From Eledone cirrhosa (taxonomy: Eukaryota): a stretch of DNA of 64,000 bases. The notes under the pieces are model-generated. The model was not told where the DNA came from, did not search any database, and was given only the letters and a program-made list of their open reading frames with translations. A program made the position numbers and the translations under genes. The DNA lies in the NCBI GenBank assembly GCA_964016885.1, contig OZ024740.1:378944001-379008000 (forward strand). Reading direction: 5' to 3'. Shown here in pieces: positions 1,746 to 43,275 of this stretch (position 1 is the stretch's first letter; every line of letters starts with the position of its first letter).

Positions 1746-4554
1746 ACTGTGTTGGAAAATTTTAATTTAATTAATGGTTCATAGGACCACAGGGGTTTAG
1801 GTATTATTTAACTTCTGCTCACTCTTATCTTAGTACATATTTTACAGGAAACTGTCAAGGCTAGTTTCAGTGTGTTGTGTCAAAACAAGGACGTCGTATG
1901 AATTAATGTGAGGTTACTGCAAGCAAAGTTGAGAGGGTGTCAGTTTACTGACCTCAGGATGAAAAGTTGTTTCGTGAGTGCGTTGTGTTCACGATCAAAG
2001 TACTTAAGATTCACACTGGTTTAGACCAACTATCAGTAAATAAGTACTTTGGAGCAATATATCTAATTGATTTGGATAGCAAGGATTAAATAATTGAGAA
2101 ATATTTCAATGAGTAAGCTTGGAGAATTATTTATGTGACATCATATTCTTATTATTTATAATACTTTAGATACATAAACATTCATTTATTTGGTGAATAA
2201 TGAATTATTATTGACAAAGACAAGTTCAAATCTAATTGAAATGGATACGAATGTTATAATAATTTTCAGATAAGTGTAGAGAAGCATCATCATTCATGCA
2301 ACATAAGTCTTTATAAAAATGTAAGTCGTAATAAGATAACAATTTTAAAGGTGCTGAGAATTGATGTTTTAATTAGCTTTGAGCCTCTCATGTCACCAAG
2401 ACCATAAATGAAATGATGTTACATCTGTATTTGACCAAAGGGCATTATGTGTATAAATGTAGAAAGTTTGAAACTAAACGCGAACATCAATTGCATAACT
2501 AGATGGACGTGGTCGGAGTATAGCAGCTACTGTTTTTTGCAATCATCATTTGATAATGTGTATAAACCATTTGAGTTTTTATAGACTGCGTTGTTAGGAT
2601 AGTATTATTATAGTGCTGTAGTAGTGTTCTGAGGATGCTTTTAGATATATCTGGGTGCTCTTTTTAGATATGTCTTGTGGTCTTTCAGTTTCAGTAGTTT
2701 TGTTTCATTGTTTACGTGATCCTTGTTGTAGTCTATGTGCAACCTATAGTTTTTTTGTATTCTTTGTTGTTTGCAGTATGCATTTAGTATGTACTAGATG
2801 CATAGTTTATATATTTATCGTGTATTTCACCATGATTTAACATTTCCTGCCTTAGGAGTGGTGTAATCTGCTGTTTAAAGTGTCAAAATAGAATTCTATG
2901 TATATAGAGCATAATTTGGCTGCTATTGCAGTTGCAACTATACATTCTTAAATACAGGAATAATTTTTATTGTTATTTTAGTGAAATTACAGTAATTTCT
3001 CTTATATAAGATCTATAATGTTTTTCAGATAAAGTTATGTATGTTACAACAAATCATTATCTCTACAAACCAACATTTGTATATATATATAGTCGACAAA
3101 GCTTTGGACTCTTTTTTTATGGATACTGAGTTAGTATTTGGTTACTGTATTACAGTGCTCTAGCGCAATGTCGTCTTTATTCTCCTTGGCATAACATCCT
3201 TAACTGAATGTTTAAACCATAAATTGAACAGAAGGGGTAAACAGTAGAAATTTGTGAGTATTTATGAAATCAAATATCCTATCAAAATTAATTCAGCCTA
3301 TAAATAACCTAGATAGAATTTTTTACGTTGGTAAAATGCTACGGAAATATACCAGAGATGATATATAAAACTACATGATGTTCATGCATTTCCGATGCTT
3401 ACATCCTGTTGTAAAGCTCTGCATCAAACAGTTAGTATAATTATTGAAATAGCCTCAAGAAACACTTCATTAGCAATGAGAATAAGCGGCTTATATAAGC
3501 AGTTGTAAAAGAATATCACTTTTAGCAAATTAAAAAGTTGTATAGCAACAACATAAACCATAGTTTTAGTAGTTATTTTCAAAATTCTAAATCAGCACCA
3601 GCTATATATACATCCTGAACAGCAATCTATGTATTCCATTTCATAAAAGTATTATATATTTCTTTACATTTCAACTAAAATATTAAAGGAAAATATGTAA
3701 TCCAGTTGAAGAATAAGAATGGCCAATGTTTTTAGCTGTTTAGAGAATAAATTCGATTGTATAGAAAAACAAACTGCAAATTACAAATTCATTAGAACGT
3801 GAGTAATTAGGCTACTTGGAGCAAATTGATGAATTAATCACTACTTTTCTAGACTAAACTCTTTAAAATTTCACTGGAAGAGGTCGAGTAAGATGGTCAT
3901 TAGATATTACTTTCACTTAGGTTTCTACTTTATCAAAGAGCTTCTACTTTGAAGCTTATTACTTTTTTCAATTATCTAGAATCAACAAGTAGCTTCCTTT
4001 GTTAAGAGACACTTGATTTTACAACATTGTTATCCTGTATTACTAAATGGTGACTCAAATGGTGCCCAGAGGAATAGTGTTAACAAATAATTATGTGTTC
4101 ATAACAATTTAACCTGAAACAAATCACCAGTTAGTAACATTTTCAGATATTTGTTAGTCTTAATGCTGTTATGTCCAAAAGCAACATTTTATAAATAACT
4201 ATAACAGAGATTTGGTCATTAAAATGGAATAATATAACAAAGAAATACGAAGGCACCATAAAAGAACACGCACAGGCGTACACACACAGCTGACAAGAAC
4301 ACCCCAGTCAACACGAACACTTACACAATACGTCAAATTGGATAGGTAAATTATGTCTGTTACATTGTGCGAAACATTAATACGTTCGCCAAGAAAAGTT
4401 CAATTACAGACGACAGGTTTCTTCCAATTTTACTTTCTCAAATTATTATTACAGATATTTACGGAGCAAACATGCAACAATTTACGCTACAGGGAGATAT
4501 CAACTTCTCTATTCGGGAATTAAGTTAATTTAGAATTATGTCTTGTTTCGGTAT

Positions 4555-4908
<354 letters not shown>

Positions 4909-4913
<5 letters not shown>

Positions 4914-5915
4914 CTGGGGGGAAATGCTTCATAATAAGGGAGAGAAAGATCTTAGCTAATGGTGTGGCCACCTCCATATTATATGGTGGGTTATACCATA
5001 TAATGCGTCGGGATCTATTTTTCCTAGGTCTATGCTCATACTCGGTATATGCTACCTTATCGACAAATCCACTCCGAGCAAGAGCTTCATTGGAATACGG
5101 CGAATGGTCGGTGAAAATATGCTCGATTGTAGATAGACGGGAAAGCCTCAAAGAAACGTTTCTTACCAGGTTCTTGGTTATGCTGGCAGGATGGTTAGAA
5201 TGCTTACTTATGTAATTAAGCGTATCATTCGGCTTTCTATACGGGTAGTACAAGCCATTCGACAAACTGAGGGTGACATCGAGGTAATTAACGACCGAGA
5301 GGTTGGCCTCAACCTATATGGAGAGGTTGAAACCTTTAAAGAAGGCAGTGAGTTCTTTTCTGAACCTGTCGCAAGCACGTGGGCCGCACTTTGTCATGGT
5401 CAAAAGACCGTCATCACGATATAAACTACCGCCCACGTAGGGGAATTCTTCCTTGATAGAGAAAAGAAGGAAAAGGCCGATAAGATCAGTAACCTCCGTA
5501 GAATCGCTGATGCCCATACTCACGTCGAATGGGTTACTATTAGATTTTTTAATCCAAATAGAGTCGTCGACTTAATCACCGACTTACTTAATCACCGACT
5601 TACGGGGATTGAGGATGACATCAACTTCGAAATCCTTAACCACTGTGAGTGTTTTAGCGAAATTGATAGTTCTAAGGAGAAGTGGTAAAGTGATGGAGGA
5701 GTAGTAATTATTAATGTCGAATTGGATAAAACGGCAATGTTCCTTGTTGCATATGCCGTTGAACCAATCAATCACCGTGAAAGAATTGTTCCACAGTGCA
5801 AGAGGGGCCAAGCTTCAAATTTCAGGTATAATTCTATCTAAAACCCTTTTACTAACTCTACCTAAATCGGACTTCGTAGGGTTAATAAGCCGAATAGAGG
5901 GGTTGTTCGGGAAAT
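4909..5915 (-). mobile_element. Penelope-like element (PLE) reverse transcriptase fragment, frameshifted; possibly Hydra clade
   Basis: Collinear minus-strand peptides RLINPTKSDLGRVSK, WNNSFTVIDWF..FIQFDINNYYSSI, LYRDDGL (catalytic DD), [18 protein letters not shown] and [18 protein letters not shown] are typical of PLE RT and thumb regions. The fragment is truncated into (TA)n before any GIY-YIG domain. The clade assignment is from recall of motifs, not from a search. Confidence 0.85.
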
Positions 5916-5920
5916 TGGAT

Positions 5921-6035
5921 TATACACACACATCCGGATTCAGTGGTCTGCTTCTAGGGTATTTATTAAGAAATTTAAATACACTATATATATACCCAAG
6001 AAGCAGACCACTGAATCCGGATGTGTGTGTGTATA
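5921..6035. repeat. Fold-back (inverted repeat) at the 5'-truncation point of the PLE
   Basis: TATACACACACATCCGGATTCAGTGGTCTGCTTCT..GGGTAT pairs with ATACCC..AGAAGCAGACCACTGAATCCGGATGTGTGTGTGTATA. A second hairpin lies at ~6063-6108. Confidence 0.85.
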
Positions 6036-6356
6036 TATATATATATACATATATATATGTTTATTGACATACCAGGGGCCTAGAAATGTAGGTCCCTGGT
6101 ATGTCAATTGGTAGACATGCGATGATTCTCATTCTATATAAGGTGGGAATTGAATTCGATTATATTCTGTTTTAATTTAATATAATTTTTAAAATCCTCT
6201 GAGAAAACACCATTATGTAAACACCATAATGTTATTTTAAATTGATTTATTGTTTTGTATGTAGTATTTATTTTTTGCTTATACGAGTTACTCATAATAT
6301 CCTTTCAGTAAAACAGACCTTTCCACCTATATTTTTGATTATATATATATATATAT

Positions 6357-6570
6357 ATTAGAAAGTGAGTTTTTTTTTACAAAATGAAAAATAACCGAGG
6401 TGTCCTACACGAGTGAAAGTATAAAGAAAAAGAGATGAAATCGAAAATGCAACTGGAGTCTTATTTTTTTTAAAAATATATATATTTATTTGGTTCCTTT
6501 ACCGGTTTCGCAGTTCTTCTGCTTTTCAAAAGGTGAGTTGAGATGGAGGGTCTGTGGTTTTTCTCACATC
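6357..6570 (-). mobile_element. Short PLE-terminus-like element, family HH-A, next to (TA)n
   Basis: Near-identical reverse complement of 41000-41207. Contains a hammerhead motif followed by AATAAA on the minus strand. Confidence 0.75.
6496..6533 (-). ncRNA. Minimal type I hammerhead ribozyme, U3:A8 core variant
   Basis: Minus strand reads CCTT-TTGAAAA-GCAG AAGAA CTGC-GAAA-CCGG-TA^AAGG: 4-bp stem I, 4-bp stem II, palindromic stem III (ACCGGT), GUA cleavage triplet. Confidence 0.7.
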
Positions 6571-22741: not shown

Positions 22742-25700
22742 GTGATGATCATGATGATAGTTATGATGGTTATGATGATAGTTATGATGATCATGATGAT
22801 AGTTATGATGGTTATGATGATAGTTATGATGATCATGATGATAGTTATGATGGTTATGATGATAGTTATGATGATCATGATGATAGTTATGATGGTTATG
22901 ATGATAGTTATGATGATCATGATGATAGTTATGATGGTTATGATGATAGTTATGATGATCATGATGATAGTTATGATGGTTATGATGATAGTTATGATGA
23001 TGATGATGATAGTTATGATGATGATGATGATAGTTATGATGGTTATGATGATAGTTATGATGATGATGATGATAGTTATGATGATGATGATGATAGTTAT
23101 GATGGTTATGATGATAGTTATGATGATGATGATAGTTATGATGATGATGATGATAGTTATAATGATCATGATGATAGTTATGATGATCATGATGATAGTT
23201 ATGATGGTTATGATGGTTATGATGATAGTTATGATGATGATGATGATAGTTATGATGATGATGATGATAGTTATAATGATCATGATGATAGTTATGATGA
23301 TCATGATGATAGTTATGATGGTTATGATGATAGTTATGATGGTTATGATGATAGTTATGATGATGATGATGATAGTTATGATGATCATGATGATAGTTAT
23401 GATGATCATGATGATAGTTATGATGATCATGATGATAGTTATGATGGTTATGATGATAGTTATGATGATGATGATAGTTATGATGATGATGATGATAGTT
23501 ATAATGATCATAATGATAGTTATGATGATGATGATGATAGTTATGATGGTTATGATGATAGTTATGATGGTTATGATGATAGTTATGATGGTTATGATGA
23601 TAGTTATGATGATGATGATGATAGTTATGATGGTGATGATGATAGTTATAATGATCATGATGATAGTTATGATGATGATGATGATAGTTATGATGATCAT
23701 GATGATAGTTATGATGATCATGATGATAGTTATGATGGTTATGATGGTTATGATGATAGTTATGATGATGATGATGATAGTTATGATGGTTATGATGATA
23801 GTTATGATGGTTATGATGATAGTTATGATGGTTATGATGATAGTTATGATGGTTATGATGATAGTTATGATGGTTATGATGATAGTTATGATGATGATGA
23901 TGATAGTTATGATGGTGATGATGATAGTTATAATGATCATGATGATAGTTATGATGATGATGATGATAGTTATGATGATCATGATGATAGTTATGATGAT
24001 CATGATGATAGTTATGATGGTTATGATGGTTATGATGATAGTTATGATGATGATGATGATAGTTATGATGGTTATGATGATAGTTATGATGGTTATGATG
24101 ATAGTTATGATGGTTATGATGATAGTTATGATGGTTATGATGATAGTTATGATGGTTATGATGATAGTTATAATGATGATGATGATAGTTATGATGATCA
24201 TGATGATAGTTATGATGATCATGATGATAGTTATGATGATCATGATGATAGTTATGATGATGATGATGATAGTTATGATGATCATGATGATAGTTATGAT
24301 GATCATGATGATAGTTATGATGATCATGATGATAGTTATGATGGTTATGATGATAGTTATGATGGTTATGATGATAGTTATGATGGTTATGATGATAGTT
24401 ATAATGATGATGATGATAGTTATGATGATCATGATGATAGTTATGATGATCATGATGATAGTTATGATGGTTATGATGATAGTTATGATGGTTATGATGA
24501 TAGTTATGATGGTTATGATGATAGTTATAATGATGATGATGATAGTTATGATGATCATGATGATAGTTATGATGATCATGATGATAGTTATGATGATGAT
24601 GATGATAGTTATGATGATCATGATGATAGTTATGATGATCATGATGATAGTTATGATGATCATGATGATAGTTATGATGGTTATGATGATAGTTATGATG
24701 ATGATGATGATAGTTATGATGATGATGATAGTTATGATGATGATGATGAGTTATGATGATCATGATGATAGTTATGATGGTTATGATGGTTATGATGATA
24801 GTTATAATGATGATGATGATAGTTATGATGATCATGATGATAGTTATGATGATGATGATGATAGTTATGATGATCATGATGATAGTTATGATGGTTATGA
24901 TGGTTATGATGATAGTTATGATGATGATGATGATAGTTATGATGGTTATGATGATAGTTATGATGGTTATGATGATAGTTATGATGGTTATGATGATAGT
25001 TATGATGATGATGATGATAGTTATGATGATGATGATGATAGTTATGATGATCATGATGATAGTTATGATGATCATGATGATAGTTATGATGGTTATGATG
25101 GTTATGATGATAGTTATGATGATGATGATGATAGTTATGATGATGATGATAGTTATGATGATGATGATGATAGTTATGATGATCATAATGATAGTTATGA
25201 TGGTTATGATGATAGTTATGATGGTTATGATGATAGTTATGATGATGATGATGATGATGAGTTATGATGATCATGATGATAGTTATGATGGTTATGATGA
25301 TAGTTATGATGATGATGATGATAGTTATGATGATGATGATGATAGTTATAATGATGATGATGATAGTTATGATGATCATGATGATAGTTATAATGATGAT
25401 GATGATAGTTATGATGATCATGATGATAGTTATGATGATGATGATGATAGTTATGATGATGATGATGATAGTTATGATGATGATGATGATAGTTATGATG
25501 ATGATGATGATAGTTATGATGATCATGATGATAGTTATGATGATGATGATGATAGTTATGATGATCATGATGATAGTTATGATGATGATGATGAGTTATG
25601 ATGATCATGATGATAGTTATGATGGTTATGATGGTTATGATGATAGTTATGATGATGATGATGATAGTTATGATGATGATGATGATAGTTATAATGATCA

Positions 25701-25850
25701 TGATGATAGTTATGATGATGATGATGATAGTTATGATGATCATGATGATAGTTATGATGATGATGATGATAGTTATGATGATCATGATGATAGTTATGAT
25801 GATGATGATGATAGTTATAATGATCATGATGATAGTTATGATGATGATGA
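22742..25850. repeat. 3.1-kb minisatellite with a 21-bp unit ATAGTTATGATG(ATC/GTT/ATG)ATGATG
   Basis: Directly visible. It derives from (ATG)n, has three main unit variants, and includes 18- and 30-bp length variants. Confidence 0.97.
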
Positions 25851-28908: not shown

Positions 28909-29025
28909 AGGAACAAATAAGACCACAAGGGGTCTTACTTGTTCCTATTACCCACTCTACTACCCTAAGTATTGAGTACTTTGGTGCGTTATGGTCCACC
29001 TGGTTCCTTACCACATTTCCTTCGT

Positions 29026-29057
<32 letters not shown>

Positions 29058-29263
29058 TATATATATATATATATAACGAAGGAAATGTGGTAAGGAACCA
29101 GGTGGACCATAACGCACCAAAGTACTCAATACTTGAGGTAGTAGAGTGGGTAATAGGAACCAGTAAGACCCCGACAGCTGAGCTCAAGCCGTTTCGACGG
29201 CTAATTCAGTCCAGAATTAGCCGTCGAAACGGCTTGAGCTCAGCTGTCGGGGTCTTACTGGTT

Positions 29264-29308
<45 letters not shown>

Positions 29309-29416
29309 AATATATATAGGAAAAGAGTCAGGACACCGACGGCTGAGCTCCGGCCGTTTCAACAGGTAGATCCGAACTGTTATGGTCCACCTGGTTTCTT
29401 ACCACACTTTCTTTGT
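28909..29416. mobile_element. Nested fold-back cluster of PLE-terminus-like family HH-E
   Basis: Arms 28929-29027 (+) and 29074-29172 (-) flank a TA spacer. A perfect palindrome spans ~29153-29267, and a related subfamily arm lies at 29318-29378. The same family occurs at 40700-40848 and 41352-41535. Confidence 0.75.
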
Positions 29417-38350: not shown

Positions 38351-39611
38351 TACTATATTTTATATAATGAACTATATTTTATATAATGAAATCAAATATG
38401 AGAATTCGAAGAATATGACGCAACGAAAATGAATATCGAAAGTTTGAAGAACAAGGAAGCTTCTATGCGGTCGCTTGATCGCAGCGAGATGTCTTTCATA
38501 TCACTCGTCATAAACATTGAACACATACATAAGGTAATACTGTTCGAGACACTTTTAAAGCGTCATGGCTGAACTGGGACTAAAAAACAATTTTAATTAT
38601 CAACAAGAACTACAAGGTTGTTTGATTTGCTAGAAATATAAAGCAAATTTCCCTTAAATCACCCTTTATCTGCGGCTGAGATAAAACAATAAAGTTGGAT
38701 AATGTAGTTTCTAGTATTAACGAAACTATGTATTGGTCGTGATTGATACGTCTTTAATCATAGATCTGCTTATAAGGATGGACTGGGGCTATACAAAAAC
38801 AACTATCTTTTGACATCAAAGTAGATGAAACCAAGAAAATATATTCTAAAAATATAGTAACTGTTTAGAAACGTCTTTCTCTTAGGCTGTTTTACATTGC
38901 CTTGCCTAGATGTGGAAGGATGAGAAGTATTATATATTTTGGGATATGTATTTCGATTTTAATACTAAAAAAGAAGAGAAAATAGCTCTTTATGCCTATA
39001 GAAATAGATTCTATAATTTATTTTCTTCCCTTAGTTTTTCGATTGATTTTTTCCCCAATTTGTTTGTTTCTTAACAAGTATATTTTTTCTTTGATTCCTG
39101 TTGCTCAAAAATGAATATAATATTGTGATTAGTTACTTACGCCACTGTAAGAATTTGGTGTATGCAGAGCCAGCTAATTAACCAGCTTTAGCGTATTTTG
39201 CTCGAAACAAATCGATACTAAAATGGGATCTCATCAACGCTAGCAAACGAGACATATAGTTATACGTTTCATCCCTTGTTTATAACAAACAGGAAGCTAA
39301 ATTCACGCATGATATCTATTTACAGCTAAGTCAATGTAGCCATCGACGATTTAAGAATCTTCAGTCTGCAAGTCTACATCATCCCGTCTCGGCTTCAGGT
39401 ATGAGGGTTATCAGGGAAAAAGGCGAAGTATTTGCTAATATCAATTACTTATTTGCTAGCATTCAAAGTTCTTAATTTCGAATATGCACAAAAATACAAT
39501 AACATATGAGTAGTGATATAAAAGAATTCAATCTAACACGACTTACATGTGGGATTATAAAAGTTGTATGAAAATTGTTGATCTCCCGTGTGAATTAGAT
39601 TCATTATTAAT

Positions 39612-40000
39612 CAGGTGGATTGGCAGTATCGGTAGAGGGTCGGACGCCATGCTTTCCAGCATAGTTACGTCCCTTTACGATCTGAGTTCAAATCCCGCCG
39701 AGGTTGACTTTGCCTTTCATCCTTACGGGGTCGATAAAATAAAGTACCAGTAATGCACTAGATAATTGCTGGCCTTGTGCCTAAAGTAGAAACAATTATT
39801 AATCAGGTGGATTGGCAGTACCGGTAAAGGATAAGATGCCATGCGTTGCAGCATAGAGTTACGCCCCTTTACAGTCTGAGTTCAAATTCCGCCGAGGTAA
39901 ACTTTGCATTTCATCCTTACAGGGTCGATAAAATAAAGCACCAGTATTGCACTGGGATAATTGCTGGCCTTGTGCAAAAAAAAACAAAAACAATTATTAA
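39612..40000 (+). mobile_element. Two head-to-tail full-length SINE S1 copies
   Basis: AGGTGGATTGGCAGTA head, B-box GAGTTCAAAT, core TTTCATCCTTAC.GGGTCGATAAAATAAAG and tail AAACAATTATT, each present twice. Confidence 0.88.
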
Positions 40001-40619: not shown

Positions 40620-40701
<82 letters not shown>

Positions 40702-40935
40702 ACGAAGGAATTGTGGTAAGGAACCAGATGGACCATCACGCACCAAAGTACTCAATACTTAGGGTAGAAGAGTGGGTAATAGGTAATAGTCCAGAAATAG
40801 CCGTCGAAACGGCTTGAGCTCTGCCGTCGGGGTCATACCTGTTCCTACATATATATATATATAAAGAAAAAAAGATGAAATCGAAAATGCAACTGGAGTC
40901 TTATTTTTAAAAATATATATATATTTATTTGGTTC

Positions 40936-40971
40936 CTTTACCGGTTTCGCAGTTCTTCTGCTTTTCAAAAG
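40936..40971 (-). ncRNA. Minimal type I hammerhead, U3:A8 variant (HH-A)
   Basis: Reverse complement reads CTT-TTGAAAA-GCAG AAGAA CTGC-GAAA-CCGG-TA^AAG. Confidence 0.62.
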
Positions 40972-41032
40972 TAGAGTTGAGATGGAGGGCCTCACATGTG
41001 AGAAAAACCACAGACCCTCCATCTCAACTCTA

Positions 41033-41068
41033 CTTTTGAAAAGCAGAAGAACTGCGAAACCGGTAAAG
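41033..41068 (+). ncRNA. Minimal type I hammerhead, U3:A8 variant (HH-A)
   Basis: CTT-TTGAAAA-GCAG AAGAA CTGC-GAAA-CCGG-TA^AAG. Predicted cleavage after 41065; AATAAA at 41075-41080. Confidence 0.62.
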
Positions 41069-41199
41069 GAACCAAATAAATATATATATATTTTTAAAAA
41101 TAAGACTCCAGTTGCATTTTCGATTTCATCTTTTTTTCTTTATACTTTCACTCGTGTAGGACACCTCGGTTATTTTTCATTTTGTATAAAAAACCTCAC

Positions 41200-41323
<124 letters not shown>

Positions 41324-41561
41324 AGATATATATATATGTATAGATATATATAGGAAAAGAGTCAAGACCCCTCCGGCTGTTTCGACAGCTAGATCAAAGT
41401 TCGGATCTAGCTGTCGAAACGGCCGGAGCTCAGCCGTCGAGGTCCTGACTCTTTTCCTATTATCCACTTTACTACCCAAATATCGAGTACTCTGGTGCGT
41501 TATGGTCCACCTGGTTTCTTACCACACTTTCTTCTATATATATATATGTGGGTGTGGGGGT

Positions 41562-41810: not shown

Positions 41811-43275
41811 TAATTGTTTCTACTTTTGGCACAAGGCCAGCAAATTGCCCAGTGCATTACTGGTACTTTATTTTATCGACCCCGTAAGGATGAAAGGCAA
41901 AGTTAACCTCGGCGGGATTTGAACTCAGAAATGAAAGGGCCATAACTCTATGCGTCAAAGCATAGCGTCCGACCCTCTACCGGTACTGCCAATCCACCGC
42001 CATAAATAGAGTTTCTACTTTTGGAACAAGGCCAGCGATTACCCCAGTGCACCACTGGTTCTTTATTTTATCGACCTCGTAAGGATGAAAGGCAAAGTTA
42101 ACCTCGGCGGATTTGAACTCAGAACGCAAAGGATGGTCTACAAATAATATCGTAAAATAATATCTGTTCTGTGTTGCTGCAACGTGATATAATCAGGATT
42201 ATATATTCGTGTATTATGTTCTGCTGACGACACCGTGTCTAGAATTAACCACTATTTGTTGCTACAATGGATTTAATCATGGTTTTCTTCGCATAACAGT
42301 CTGTGTAGAAATAACTGTCATTTGTTGGACGCACGTGTTAAAATAATTGTTTCTAAAATAGACAGAAGGACAGCGATTTTGGGTAAGGGAAAAGTCGATT
42401 AAATCGAATCAGTATGTGTCTGGTACTTTATATTCTCTACCTCGCAAGGATGAAAGGTAAAGTTGACCTCAGACGGATTTGCCCCCAGAGCGTAAAGTGC
42501 CGATACAAATATGACAAAGTGTTTGTCTAACACATTATCAATATTGTCAGTTCACCTCGCTTACAGGCGTGGGAATAATGATTTCTACCTTAGGTACAGT
42601 TTTGAGGGAGAAGAAAGTCGATTAAATCGACACCAGTACTTCACTGGTACATTTTACCAACTCCAGAAATTGGTGGGACTTGTACTCAAATCGTAAAGCA
42701 TCGTATAAATAATTGTTTCTATTTTTGGCACAAGGCCTGCAATTACCCAGTGCATTACTGGTACTTTATTTTATCGTCTCTGTAAGGATGAAAGGCAAAG
42801 TTAACCTCGGCATCGTATAAATAATGATTTGTGATTTAGGCACAAGGCTAACAATTTTAGGAGAGGGGAAAGTCGATCAAATCGACTCCCATTGCGTTAT
42901 TGGTACTTTATTTTATCGACCCAGTAATGATGAAAGGCAAATCTAACTTTGGAAGGATTTGAACTCAACGCATAGGGACGTAACTATACTCCACAAAACC
43001 TGTTGTCCAGCGCTTTTCCGATACTGCCAATCCATCACCCTATTGATATATCTAATATTGGTTTCTGTTTTAGGCACAAGGCCAACAATTCTGGAGGAAA
43101 GGAAAGTTGATCAAATCGATCACAGTGTGTTATTGGTAGTTATTTTATCGACCCAGTAATGATGAAAGACAAAGCTAACTTCGGCGGGATTTGAACTCAG
43201 AACGCATAGGGCCGTAACTATATGCCGCAAAGCATGTTGTCTGACGTTCTACCGATACTGCTATTCCATCACCCT
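41811..43275 (-). mobile_element. Cluster of ~7 co-oriented SINE S1 copies
   Basis: S1 blocks start near 41811, 42010, 42345, 42577, 42710, 42823 and 43058. Confidence 0.85.

What the first reader, a model, noticed from the sequence alone, without database searches (positions are those of the whole stretch)
41033..41068. Hammerhead family HH-A uses a compensated U3:A8 catalytic core
Seen in sequence: all three copies (6496-6533, 40936-40971, 41033-41068) read UUGAAAA instead of CUGANGA, while stem II (GCAG/CUGC), GAAA, palindromic stem III (ACCGGU) and the GUA site are intact. Established knowledge: positions 3 and 8 form a tertiary Watson-Crick pair in the active fold, so C3U plus G8A is a compensatory double change. 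Inference: this is a functional variant that standard CUGANGA descriptors would miss.
Basis: partly seen in the sequence, partly recalled or inferred. Interest (0 to 1): 0.75.

Follow-up and report, generated by a model that had tools for sequence, protein, structure and literature searches.

The report
Known U3:A8 hammerhead in Penelope retroelement
The motif is a real hammerhead-shaped RNA element at the end of a very abundant Penelope-like jumping gene, and its U-A core pair (instead of C-G) is already published for such elements, so it is an ordinary new example that likely self-cuts only slowly and only as a pair.

Summary
Observation confirmed: three identical UUGAAAA-core hammerhead motifs, none expected by chance. 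They are truncated end-stubs of a young Penelope-like retroelement (RT + GIY-YIG, (TA)n target) with 12,454 motif copies. Better evidence: U3:A8 persists in three sister families at 53-57% protein identity while stems I/II change in a compensated way, and a more distant family has C3:G8. The variant is not new: U3-A8 is published for natural hammerheads (PMC3088659) and for Penelope-like elements (PMC4209133), and this scan noted it in several other genomes. One correction: the 40936/41033 pair is inverted, not tandem; a read-through RNA would bury both motifs in a long hairpin. Most stubs start 30-46 nt upstream of the motif, with no pile-up at the cut site, which points to uncut RNA as template. 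Cleavage is untested. New member of a known kind; interest 0.2.

The parts
41033..41068 (+). Minimal type I hammerhead motif: stem I 41033-41035/41066-41068, core U3(41036)-A9(41042) with A8 at 41041, stem II 41043-41046/41052-41055, GAAA 41056-41059, palindromic stem III 41059-41064, A17 at 41065 (predicted cut after 41065)
40936..40971 (-). Second, identical hammerhead motif (3-bp stem I), inverted partner of the first
6496..6533 (-). Third hammerhead motif, youngest subfamily (4-bp stem I CCUU/AAGG)
40993..41212 (+). Long arm of an inverted Penelope-like element stub: starts about 40 nt before the motif, ends at the distal 3' end (with the tail)
   Evidence: 95% identity over 220 nt to the pLTR/5' region of full-length element L067; arm type
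40860..40992 (-). Short arm of the same inverted stub: ends at the proximal 3' end (no tail)
   Evidence: 93% identity over 133 nt to L067
6352..6574 (-). Single 5'-truncated stub of the same element, long 3' end, inserted in (TA)n
   Evidence: 97% identity over 223 nt to L067
41206..41352 (.). (AT)n microsatellite adjoining the long arm, the likely insertion target

Best explanation
The motif is the minimal type I hammerhead carried in the pseudo-LTR of a young, very abundant Penelope-like retroelement, its U3:A8 core pair is a family-wide, already published variant, and it likely self-cleaves slowly, as a dimer, only in full-length element RNA. Shown: element anatomy (motif - ORF1/ORF2 with RT and GIY-YIG - motif), copy number, U3:A8 in four related families with compensated stems, and the window copies being truncated stubs. 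Inferred: two motifs about 4.7 kb apart in a pLTR-ORF-pLTR transcript pair through the 6-bp ACCGGU palindrome and U3 pairs with A8 in the active fold. Also inferred: cutting is slow or protein-assisted, so most new insertions are copied from uncut RNA. The inverted pair at 40936/41033 is a by-product of insertion and would be inert, because each strand folds into one long hairpin.
For: Stubs match a full-length element at 93-97%. 3 of 20 fetched long-ORF loci (L064, L067, L070) have same-strand motifs on both sides of a 775-codon frame with Pfam GIY-YIG (E 3.7e-6, above cut-off) and RVT_1 (E 4.9e-6, below cut-off). 12,454 motif copies, control 0; C3:G8 0, C3:A8 55, U3:G8 25. In loci chosen by protein, not by ribozyme: U3:A8 in 75 of 75 copies of this family, 21 of 21 of F2 and 18 of 18 of F3; C3:G8 in 12 of 16 of F5. 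F2, F3 and F6 are 53-57% identical in protein and form one clade (100/100) with this family, apart from F5. Their stems differ but pair: stem II GCAG/CUGC, GCAU/AUGC, GAUGG/CCAUC; stem I CCUU/AAGG versus UUUU/AAAA. Subfamilies ordered by decay (9.6%, 4.2%, 4.2%, 1.6%) gained three Watson-Crick pairs in stems I/II with no core change. The monomer hammerhead fold is unfavourable (+2.4 to -0.4 kcal/mol) and co-folding gives the intermolecular palindrome with probability 0.92. 40 of 69 copies start 30-46 nt before U3, and there is no sharp pile-up at the cut site. This agrees with PMC11167929, where uncut RNA is the dominant template and the ribozyme is protein-assisted.
Against: No cleavage or RNA data were obtained. 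Within the family the test has no power: independent mutation predicts about 0.11 double variants (55 x 25 / 12,454) and 0 were seen. The dimer energy gain (-7.5 kcal/mol) is not beyond shuffles (mean -6.7, sd 2.9; 32% reach it). U3 is predicted to pair with A17 about half the time (0.53), which would block the cut site. Sister family F3 has GCAA in place of GAAA in the EN-linked copies read and F8 has A before UGAAGA in 26 of 30 loci, so the core is not strictly held in this clade. The tree is midpoint-rooted only and U3:A8 may have arisen once, so it is one event, not repeated covariation. The lack of 5' ends at the cut site fits a non-cutting motif equally well.
Confidence: 0.78

Rival explanations
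1. The motif keeps the hammerhead fold but no longer cuts; it is kept as a protein-binding, dimerisation or template-positioning structure for the element's RT-endonuclease.
For: Most stubs contain the intact motif and start upstream of it (40 of 69); no clear pile-up of 5' ends at the cut site (5 of 30 loci within 0-2 nt versus 2-4 per 3-nt bin nearby). Predicted U3:A17 pairing. Further core departures in sister families. In PMC11167929 ribozyme-dead mutants did not affect insertion in vitro; PMC8557442 reports that Naiads spread without a canonical hammerhead.
Against: The 3-8 positions stay Watson-Crick complementary in four families (U:A) and in the more distant family (C:G). That pair belongs to the active fold (PMC3884650, introduction passage). 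UH at the cut site is kept in these families. A Penelope-like element hammerhead was shown to cut and to need the 3-8 pair (PMC11167929).
Confidence: 0.15
2. U3:A8 is two neutral or damaging substitutions frozen in one master element and multiplied by recent amplification; the complementarity is accidental.
For: Young copies are nearly invariant everywhere, including the loop of stem II (listing). The genome is AT-rich, which favours C-to-T and G-to-A changes. A single origin of U3:A8 fits the tree.
Against: The pair has lasted across families whose proteins diverged to 53-57% identity and whose flanks and stems were rewritten; position 7 varies (A or U) while 3 and 8 do not.
Confidence: 0.05
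3. The stretch is a MALAT1-like (ENE) triple-helix or a microRNA-type hairpin rather than a hammerhead.
For: Best Rfam hit on the region is MALAT1, 19.8 bits, E 0.61; weak miRNA-family hits cover the inverted centre.
Against: The MALAT1 hit is far below its gathering score of 70. The miRNA hits are also below their cut-offs and reflect the perfect inverted repeat. Sister families conserve the hammerhead positions and not the U/A runs.
Confidence: 0.02

Closest known systems
U3-A8 minimal hammerheads of Cercyon Penelope-like elements, Schistosoma mansoni (Cervera and de la Pena 2014, PMC4209133; read parts 1-2 of 4)
   Same: Type I minimal hammerhead in pseudo-LTRs, U3-A8 instead of C3-G8, missed by the standard descriptor, mostly single truncated copies, some pairs 100-700 bp apart on opposite strands, predicted to act as dimers.
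   Different: Here stem II is 4 bp (7-8 bp there), there is no extra nucleotide between 9 and 10.1 in this family, stem III carries a CCGG palindrome, and one near-uniform family has over 12,000 copies (about 1,300 heterogeneous hits there).
Natural U3:A8 hammerhead core variants (Perreault et al. 2011, PMC3088659; read section 8)
   Same: Same compensatory change; the paper states such ribozymes had already been proven active in vitro.
   Different: Those are 'several examples' from a general survey; no Penelope context in the passages read.
PAc (Poseidon) element of Anolis carolinensis (Frangieh et al. 2024, PMC11167929; read parts 1-2 of 4)
   Same: Hammerhead near the ORF start, two adjacent 3' ends defining a tail, AT-rich targets, evidence that uncut RNA is the template.
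   Different: PAc has C3:G8, a 30-40 bp tail and a hammerhead overlapping the start codon; here U3:A8, a 68-nt tail, a cut site about 170 nt before ORF1, a zinc-finger-like linker and two overlapping frames.
Neptune/Nematis clades of endonuclease-positive Penelope-like elements (Craig et al. 2021, PMC8557442; passages)
   Same: C-terminal GIY-YIG, CX2-5CxxC linker, DKG motif, partial tandems, inverted 5'-truncated copies, tail, microsatellite targeting.
   Different: Clade placement against reference elements was not tested; ORF1 and ORF2 overlap here.

Membership tests
Minimal type I hammerheads of metazoan Penelope-like elements | Core CUGANGA (or the U3-A8 variant) ... GAAA ... UH in type I order with stems I and II | tested here: met
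   U3-A8 variant as in PMC4209133
Minimal type I hammerheads of metazoan Penelope-like elements | Short palindromic stem III that allows a dimer | tested here: met
   ACCGGU; intermolecular A15.1:U16.1 probability 0.92 in co-folding
Minimal type I hammerheads of metazoan Penelope-like elements | G10.1-C11.1 pair | tested here: met
   G41043-C41055; G.U in the oldest subfamily
Minimal type I hammerheads of metazoan Penelope-like elements | Extra nucleotide between 9 and 10.1 (common, listed as a recurring trait) | tested here: not met
   Absent in this family; a U sits there in F2 and F5, opposite a U before GAAA
Minimal type I hammerheads of metazoan Penelope-like elements | Located in both flanking repeats of an RT + GIY-YIG element | tested here: met
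   L064, L067, L070 (3 of 20 loci); Pfam
Minimal type I hammerheads of metazoan Penelope-like elements | Self-cleavage, weak and dimer-dependent | not testable with these tools
   needs a bench assay; no RNA holder listed
Endonuclease-positive Penelope-like elements, Neptune/Nematis type | RT with DKG motif followed by C-terminal GIY-YIG | tested here: met
   (RVT_1 below its curated cut-off, GIY-YIG above)
Endonuclease-positive Penelope-like elements, Neptune/Nematis type | CX2-5CxxC linker before the endonuclease | tested here: met
   C-x4-C-x2-C read by eye in the translation; definition from PMC8557442
Endonuclease-positive Penelope-like elements, Neptune/Nematis type | Partial tandems, inverted truncated copies, one-sided tail, (TA)n targets | tested here: met
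   10 of 10 complete inverted pairs in L001-L030, plus the window pair, have one long and one short end; ends at two fixed places 68 nt apart followed by (TA)n
Endonuclease-positive Penelope-like elements, Neptune/Nematis type | Single open reading frame | tested here: not met
   400-aa ORF1 overlaps the RT frame; PMC8557442 Fig. 1 legend allows an ORF1 separated by a frameshift in some PLE types (figure not seen)
Endonuclease-positive Penelope-like elements, Neptune/Nematis type | RT phylogeny places it in Neptune or Nematis | not tested
   no reference proteins were in hand; tree holds only this genome's elements
Non-LTR retrozymes | Non-coding head-to-tail tandem units, each with a hammerhead | tested here: not met
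   no tandem array at these places; pair is inverted; family has coding full-length members
Rfam hammerhead families | Covariance-model match | tested here: not met
   none among 4 hits on 41010-41090, none among the 150 of 196 rows shown for the window

The most novel reading that the evidence does not exclude
In this clade of Penelope-like elements the U3:A8 core combined with a GUA cut site is a built-in brake: U3 pairs with A17 and covers the cut site (like the known C3:G17 trap), so the RNA stays uncut as template until dimerisation or the element's protein releases it. The clade also offers a natural series of working core variants (U3:A8; U3:A8 with A13C; C-A-UGAAGA) on one scaffold.
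Probability: 0.15. Interest if true: 0.55.

Novelty: new member of a known kind. Interest (0 to 1): 0.2.

Why it matters
The variant itself adds little, since it is published for this class of element. Its use is practical. Hammerhead counts made with CUGANGA descriptors or Rfam miss over 12,000 motifs in this genome. The dated subfamilies and sister families give a natural allelic series (stem gains, A13C, a possible insertion after C3, U3 with A17 or C17) for the open question of whether Penelope-like elements need to cut their own RNA.

Tried and rejected
Within-family covariation test: uninformative (0 doubles seen, about 0.11 expected; 8 of the 55 C3:A8 matches lie in one 90-kb cluster on C1 and may be duplicates). 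Two C3:G8 look-alikes of the oldest subfamily (L141, L142) and L143/L144 were inspected; they are isolated decayed or rearranged copies, not a subfamily. Search for a C3:G8 sister of F2 returned only 8 one-mismatch F2 copies, none C3:G8; family F7 (L147, L148; C3:G8, same stem III) could not be tied to a protein. No hammerhead was found within about 1.3 kb after the F4 endonuclease in 2 of 2 loci. In the tree the row labelled L262 is a neighbouring F4 frame, not the L141 element; 6 of 22 loci gave no alignment and were left out. One of the two F6 rows is a spurious match, so F6 rests on two copies (L145, L217/L260). Footprint of cleavage in insertion ends: no sharp pile-up; the script on 30 loci mis-sorted three junctions (L279, L284, L290), corrected by eye; a by-eye tally of the 100 listed rows gave about 15, 11, 7 and 9 junctions in successive 3-nt bins from the cut site. 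Dimer energy gain is not beyond shuffles. Expression: no RNA holder listed; the three laid runs are contigs and cannot show RNA ends, but show no other letter at 5% or more at the core positions. PDB sequence search of the RT frame: no hit. MALAT1/ENE and miRNA readings rejected. Lunse et al. 2017 (PMC5785218) and Przybilski and Hammann 2007 (PMC1986816) are not held; only their titles were seen in reference lists, so measured rates for U3:A8 are not cited. No supplements were read; those of PMC4209133 and PMC3088659 may already list A13C or insertion variants.

Full report
Observation. The 30 nt from U3 to A17 occur three times without mismatch (6500-6529 minus, 40939-40968 minus, 41036-41065 plus) and never in 100 shuffles. 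A generic type I scan gave these three plus one weak chance hit at 5337-5403. Stem II is GCAG/CUGC, followed by GAAA, the palindrome ACCGGU and GUA at the predicted cut. Stem I is 3 bp in the two copies near 41 kb and 4 bp in the copy at 6.5 kb. Rfam has no hammerhead hit on the region. The two copies near 41 kb are on opposite strands and point outwards.

What carries it. The motif pattern matches 12,454 places in the 3.0-Gb genome, reversed control 0. Walking upstream from one copy led to a GIY-YIG fragment, then to many long open frames. In 3 of 20 such loci the layout is motif - ORF1/ORF2 - motif on one strand, about 4.7 kb apart. The long frame has RVT_1 and GIY-YIG matches, a DKG motif and a C-x4-C-x2-C linker (by eye). 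These are marks of Neptune/Nematis-type Penelope-like elements in PMC8557442 (passages). The window copies are stubs of this element at 93-97% identity, each ending in (TA)n. The family has two fixed 3' ends 68 nt apart, 79 and 147 nt past the cut site. All 10 complete inverted pairs among L001-L030, and the window pair, have one long and one short end. This is the tail signature that PMC11167929 (parts 1-2) traces to two internal reverse-transcription start sites.

Is U3:A8 the family state? Yes. Genome-wide: C3:G8 0, C3:A8 55, U3:G8 25. A wider pattern for older forms gave 1,574 matches, 99 of the 100 listed being U3:A8. In loci picked by protein, 75 of 75 copies are U3:A8.

Is the pair under selection? 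Better evidence comes from relatives found by their endonuclease. F2 (UUGAUAA, stem II GCAU/AUGC) is U3:A8 in 21 of 21 copies and F3 (stem I UUUU/AAAA, stem II GCAU/AUGC) in 18 of 18. F6 (stem II GAUGG/CCAUC, GUC site) is U3:A8 in the two copies seen. Their proteins are 53-57% identical to this family and group with it at 100/100, apart from F5 (48%), which has C3:G8 in 12 of 16 copies. Position 7, both stems and the flanks changed while 3 and 8 stayed paired. Within the family, subfamilies ranked by decay (9.6, 4.2, 4.2 and 1.6%; n = 14, 13, 29, 94) turned G.U into G-C and a mismatch into G-C in stem II and A.G into C-G in stem I, with no core change; the numbers are small. Against this: the tree has only a midpoint root and one origin of U3:A8 suffices. 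F3 has GCAA for GAAA, and F8, nested in the clade on one partial protein, has A before UGAAGA in 26 of 30 loci.

How it likely works. A single motif cannot close stem III (hammerhead fold +2.4 to -0.4 kcal/mol). Two copies pair through ACCGGU with probability 0.92, the dimer geometry described in PMC4209133, although the energy gain is not beyond shuffles. In a pLTR-ORF-pLTR transcript the two same-strand motifs could do this (inferred). The pair in this window cannot: each strand holds one sense motif and folds into one long hairpin of about -220 kcal/mol. 40 of 69 copies begin 30-46 nt upstream of U3, likely the transcription start (inferred; lead from e1-8612152). Copies beginning at the cut site are few and not sharply enriched over neighbouring positions. 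So most insertions were likely copied from uncut RNA, as PMC11167929 found in vitro for an anole element whose ribozyme needs protein and the 3-8 pair. Folding also pairs U3 with A17 about half the time, like the C3:G17 trap in PMC3884650 (passages); this would slow cutting and is untested.

Comparison with what is known. PMC3088659 (section 8) reports C3:G8 covarying to U3:A8 in nature and says such ribozymes were already shown active in vitro. PMC4209133 (parts 1-2) reports U3-A8 in Penelope-like elements of Schistosoma mansoni, missed by its first descriptor, about 1,300 hits, and opposite-strand pairs. PMC6765202 (passages) reviews the dimer model; bioRxiv 10.64898/2026.07.22.740005 (part 1 of 5) links retrozymes to these elements. 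The scan's own notes list 11 similar findings in at least 7 genomes (unchecked). I found no paper on the U3:A17 trap or on A13C in these elements, but two key papers are not held and no supplements were read, so that is not a claim of absence.

Verdict. New member of a known kind, interest 0.2.

Noticed in passing
L067:2959-4161 and 4071-6398 (G000:C1:399.39-399.40 Mb); also L061-L079: The full-length element has a 400-aa ORF1 overlapping the RT frame, with a U UUU UUA heptamer in ORF1 frame at L067:4091, present in 18 junctions from 17 of 20 loci. A -1 shift would fuse the frames. In family F4 (L195) an ORF1 homolog (31.5% over 257 aa, E 2e-30) lies in one 1096-codon frame with RT. The downstream hairpin is weak (-8.7 kcal/mol). 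PMC8557442 Fig. 1 legend mentions ORF1 frameshifts in PLEs.
   Followed up: partly
L159, L161, L174, L177, L179, L185, L194 (family F3): Sister family with U3:A8 plus GCAA in place of GAAA (A13C) in the EN-linked copies read; stems intact.
   Followed up: partly
L229-L258 (family F8, 85 pattern matches): Hammerhead-like family reading C-A-UGAAGA: either A3 opposite G8, or C3:G8 with one inserted A, in which case stem I (about 4 bp) abuts C3.
   Followed up: partly
window 40700-40847, 41350-41540, 28928-29380: A second (TA)n-inserted fold-back repeat family (GUCGAAACGGC motif) flanks the stub pair; many copies in fetched loci. Earlier scan notes describe a re-ordered hammerhead in a repeat family of this genome; whether this is that family was not checked.
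   Followed up: no
L064:8489-9455, L019:1953-2450: Canonical CUGAUGA type I hammerheads with 7-bp stem I, repeated about 466 nt apart on one strand: retrozyme-like or short pLTR tandems.
   Followed up: no
L081-L110: Another family, CUGAUGA ... GAAACCGGUC, making up most of the 105 canonical-core matches with the CCGG palindrome; no endonuclease within 1.5 kb upstream.
   Followed up: no
window 22743-25850: 3.1-kb minisatellite of a 21-nt (TGA)n-derived unit with strong GC skew.
   Followed up: no
window 39603-39975 and 42820-43275: Two-copy tandem repeats of 194 and 234 nt of a SINE-like repeat.
   Followed up: no
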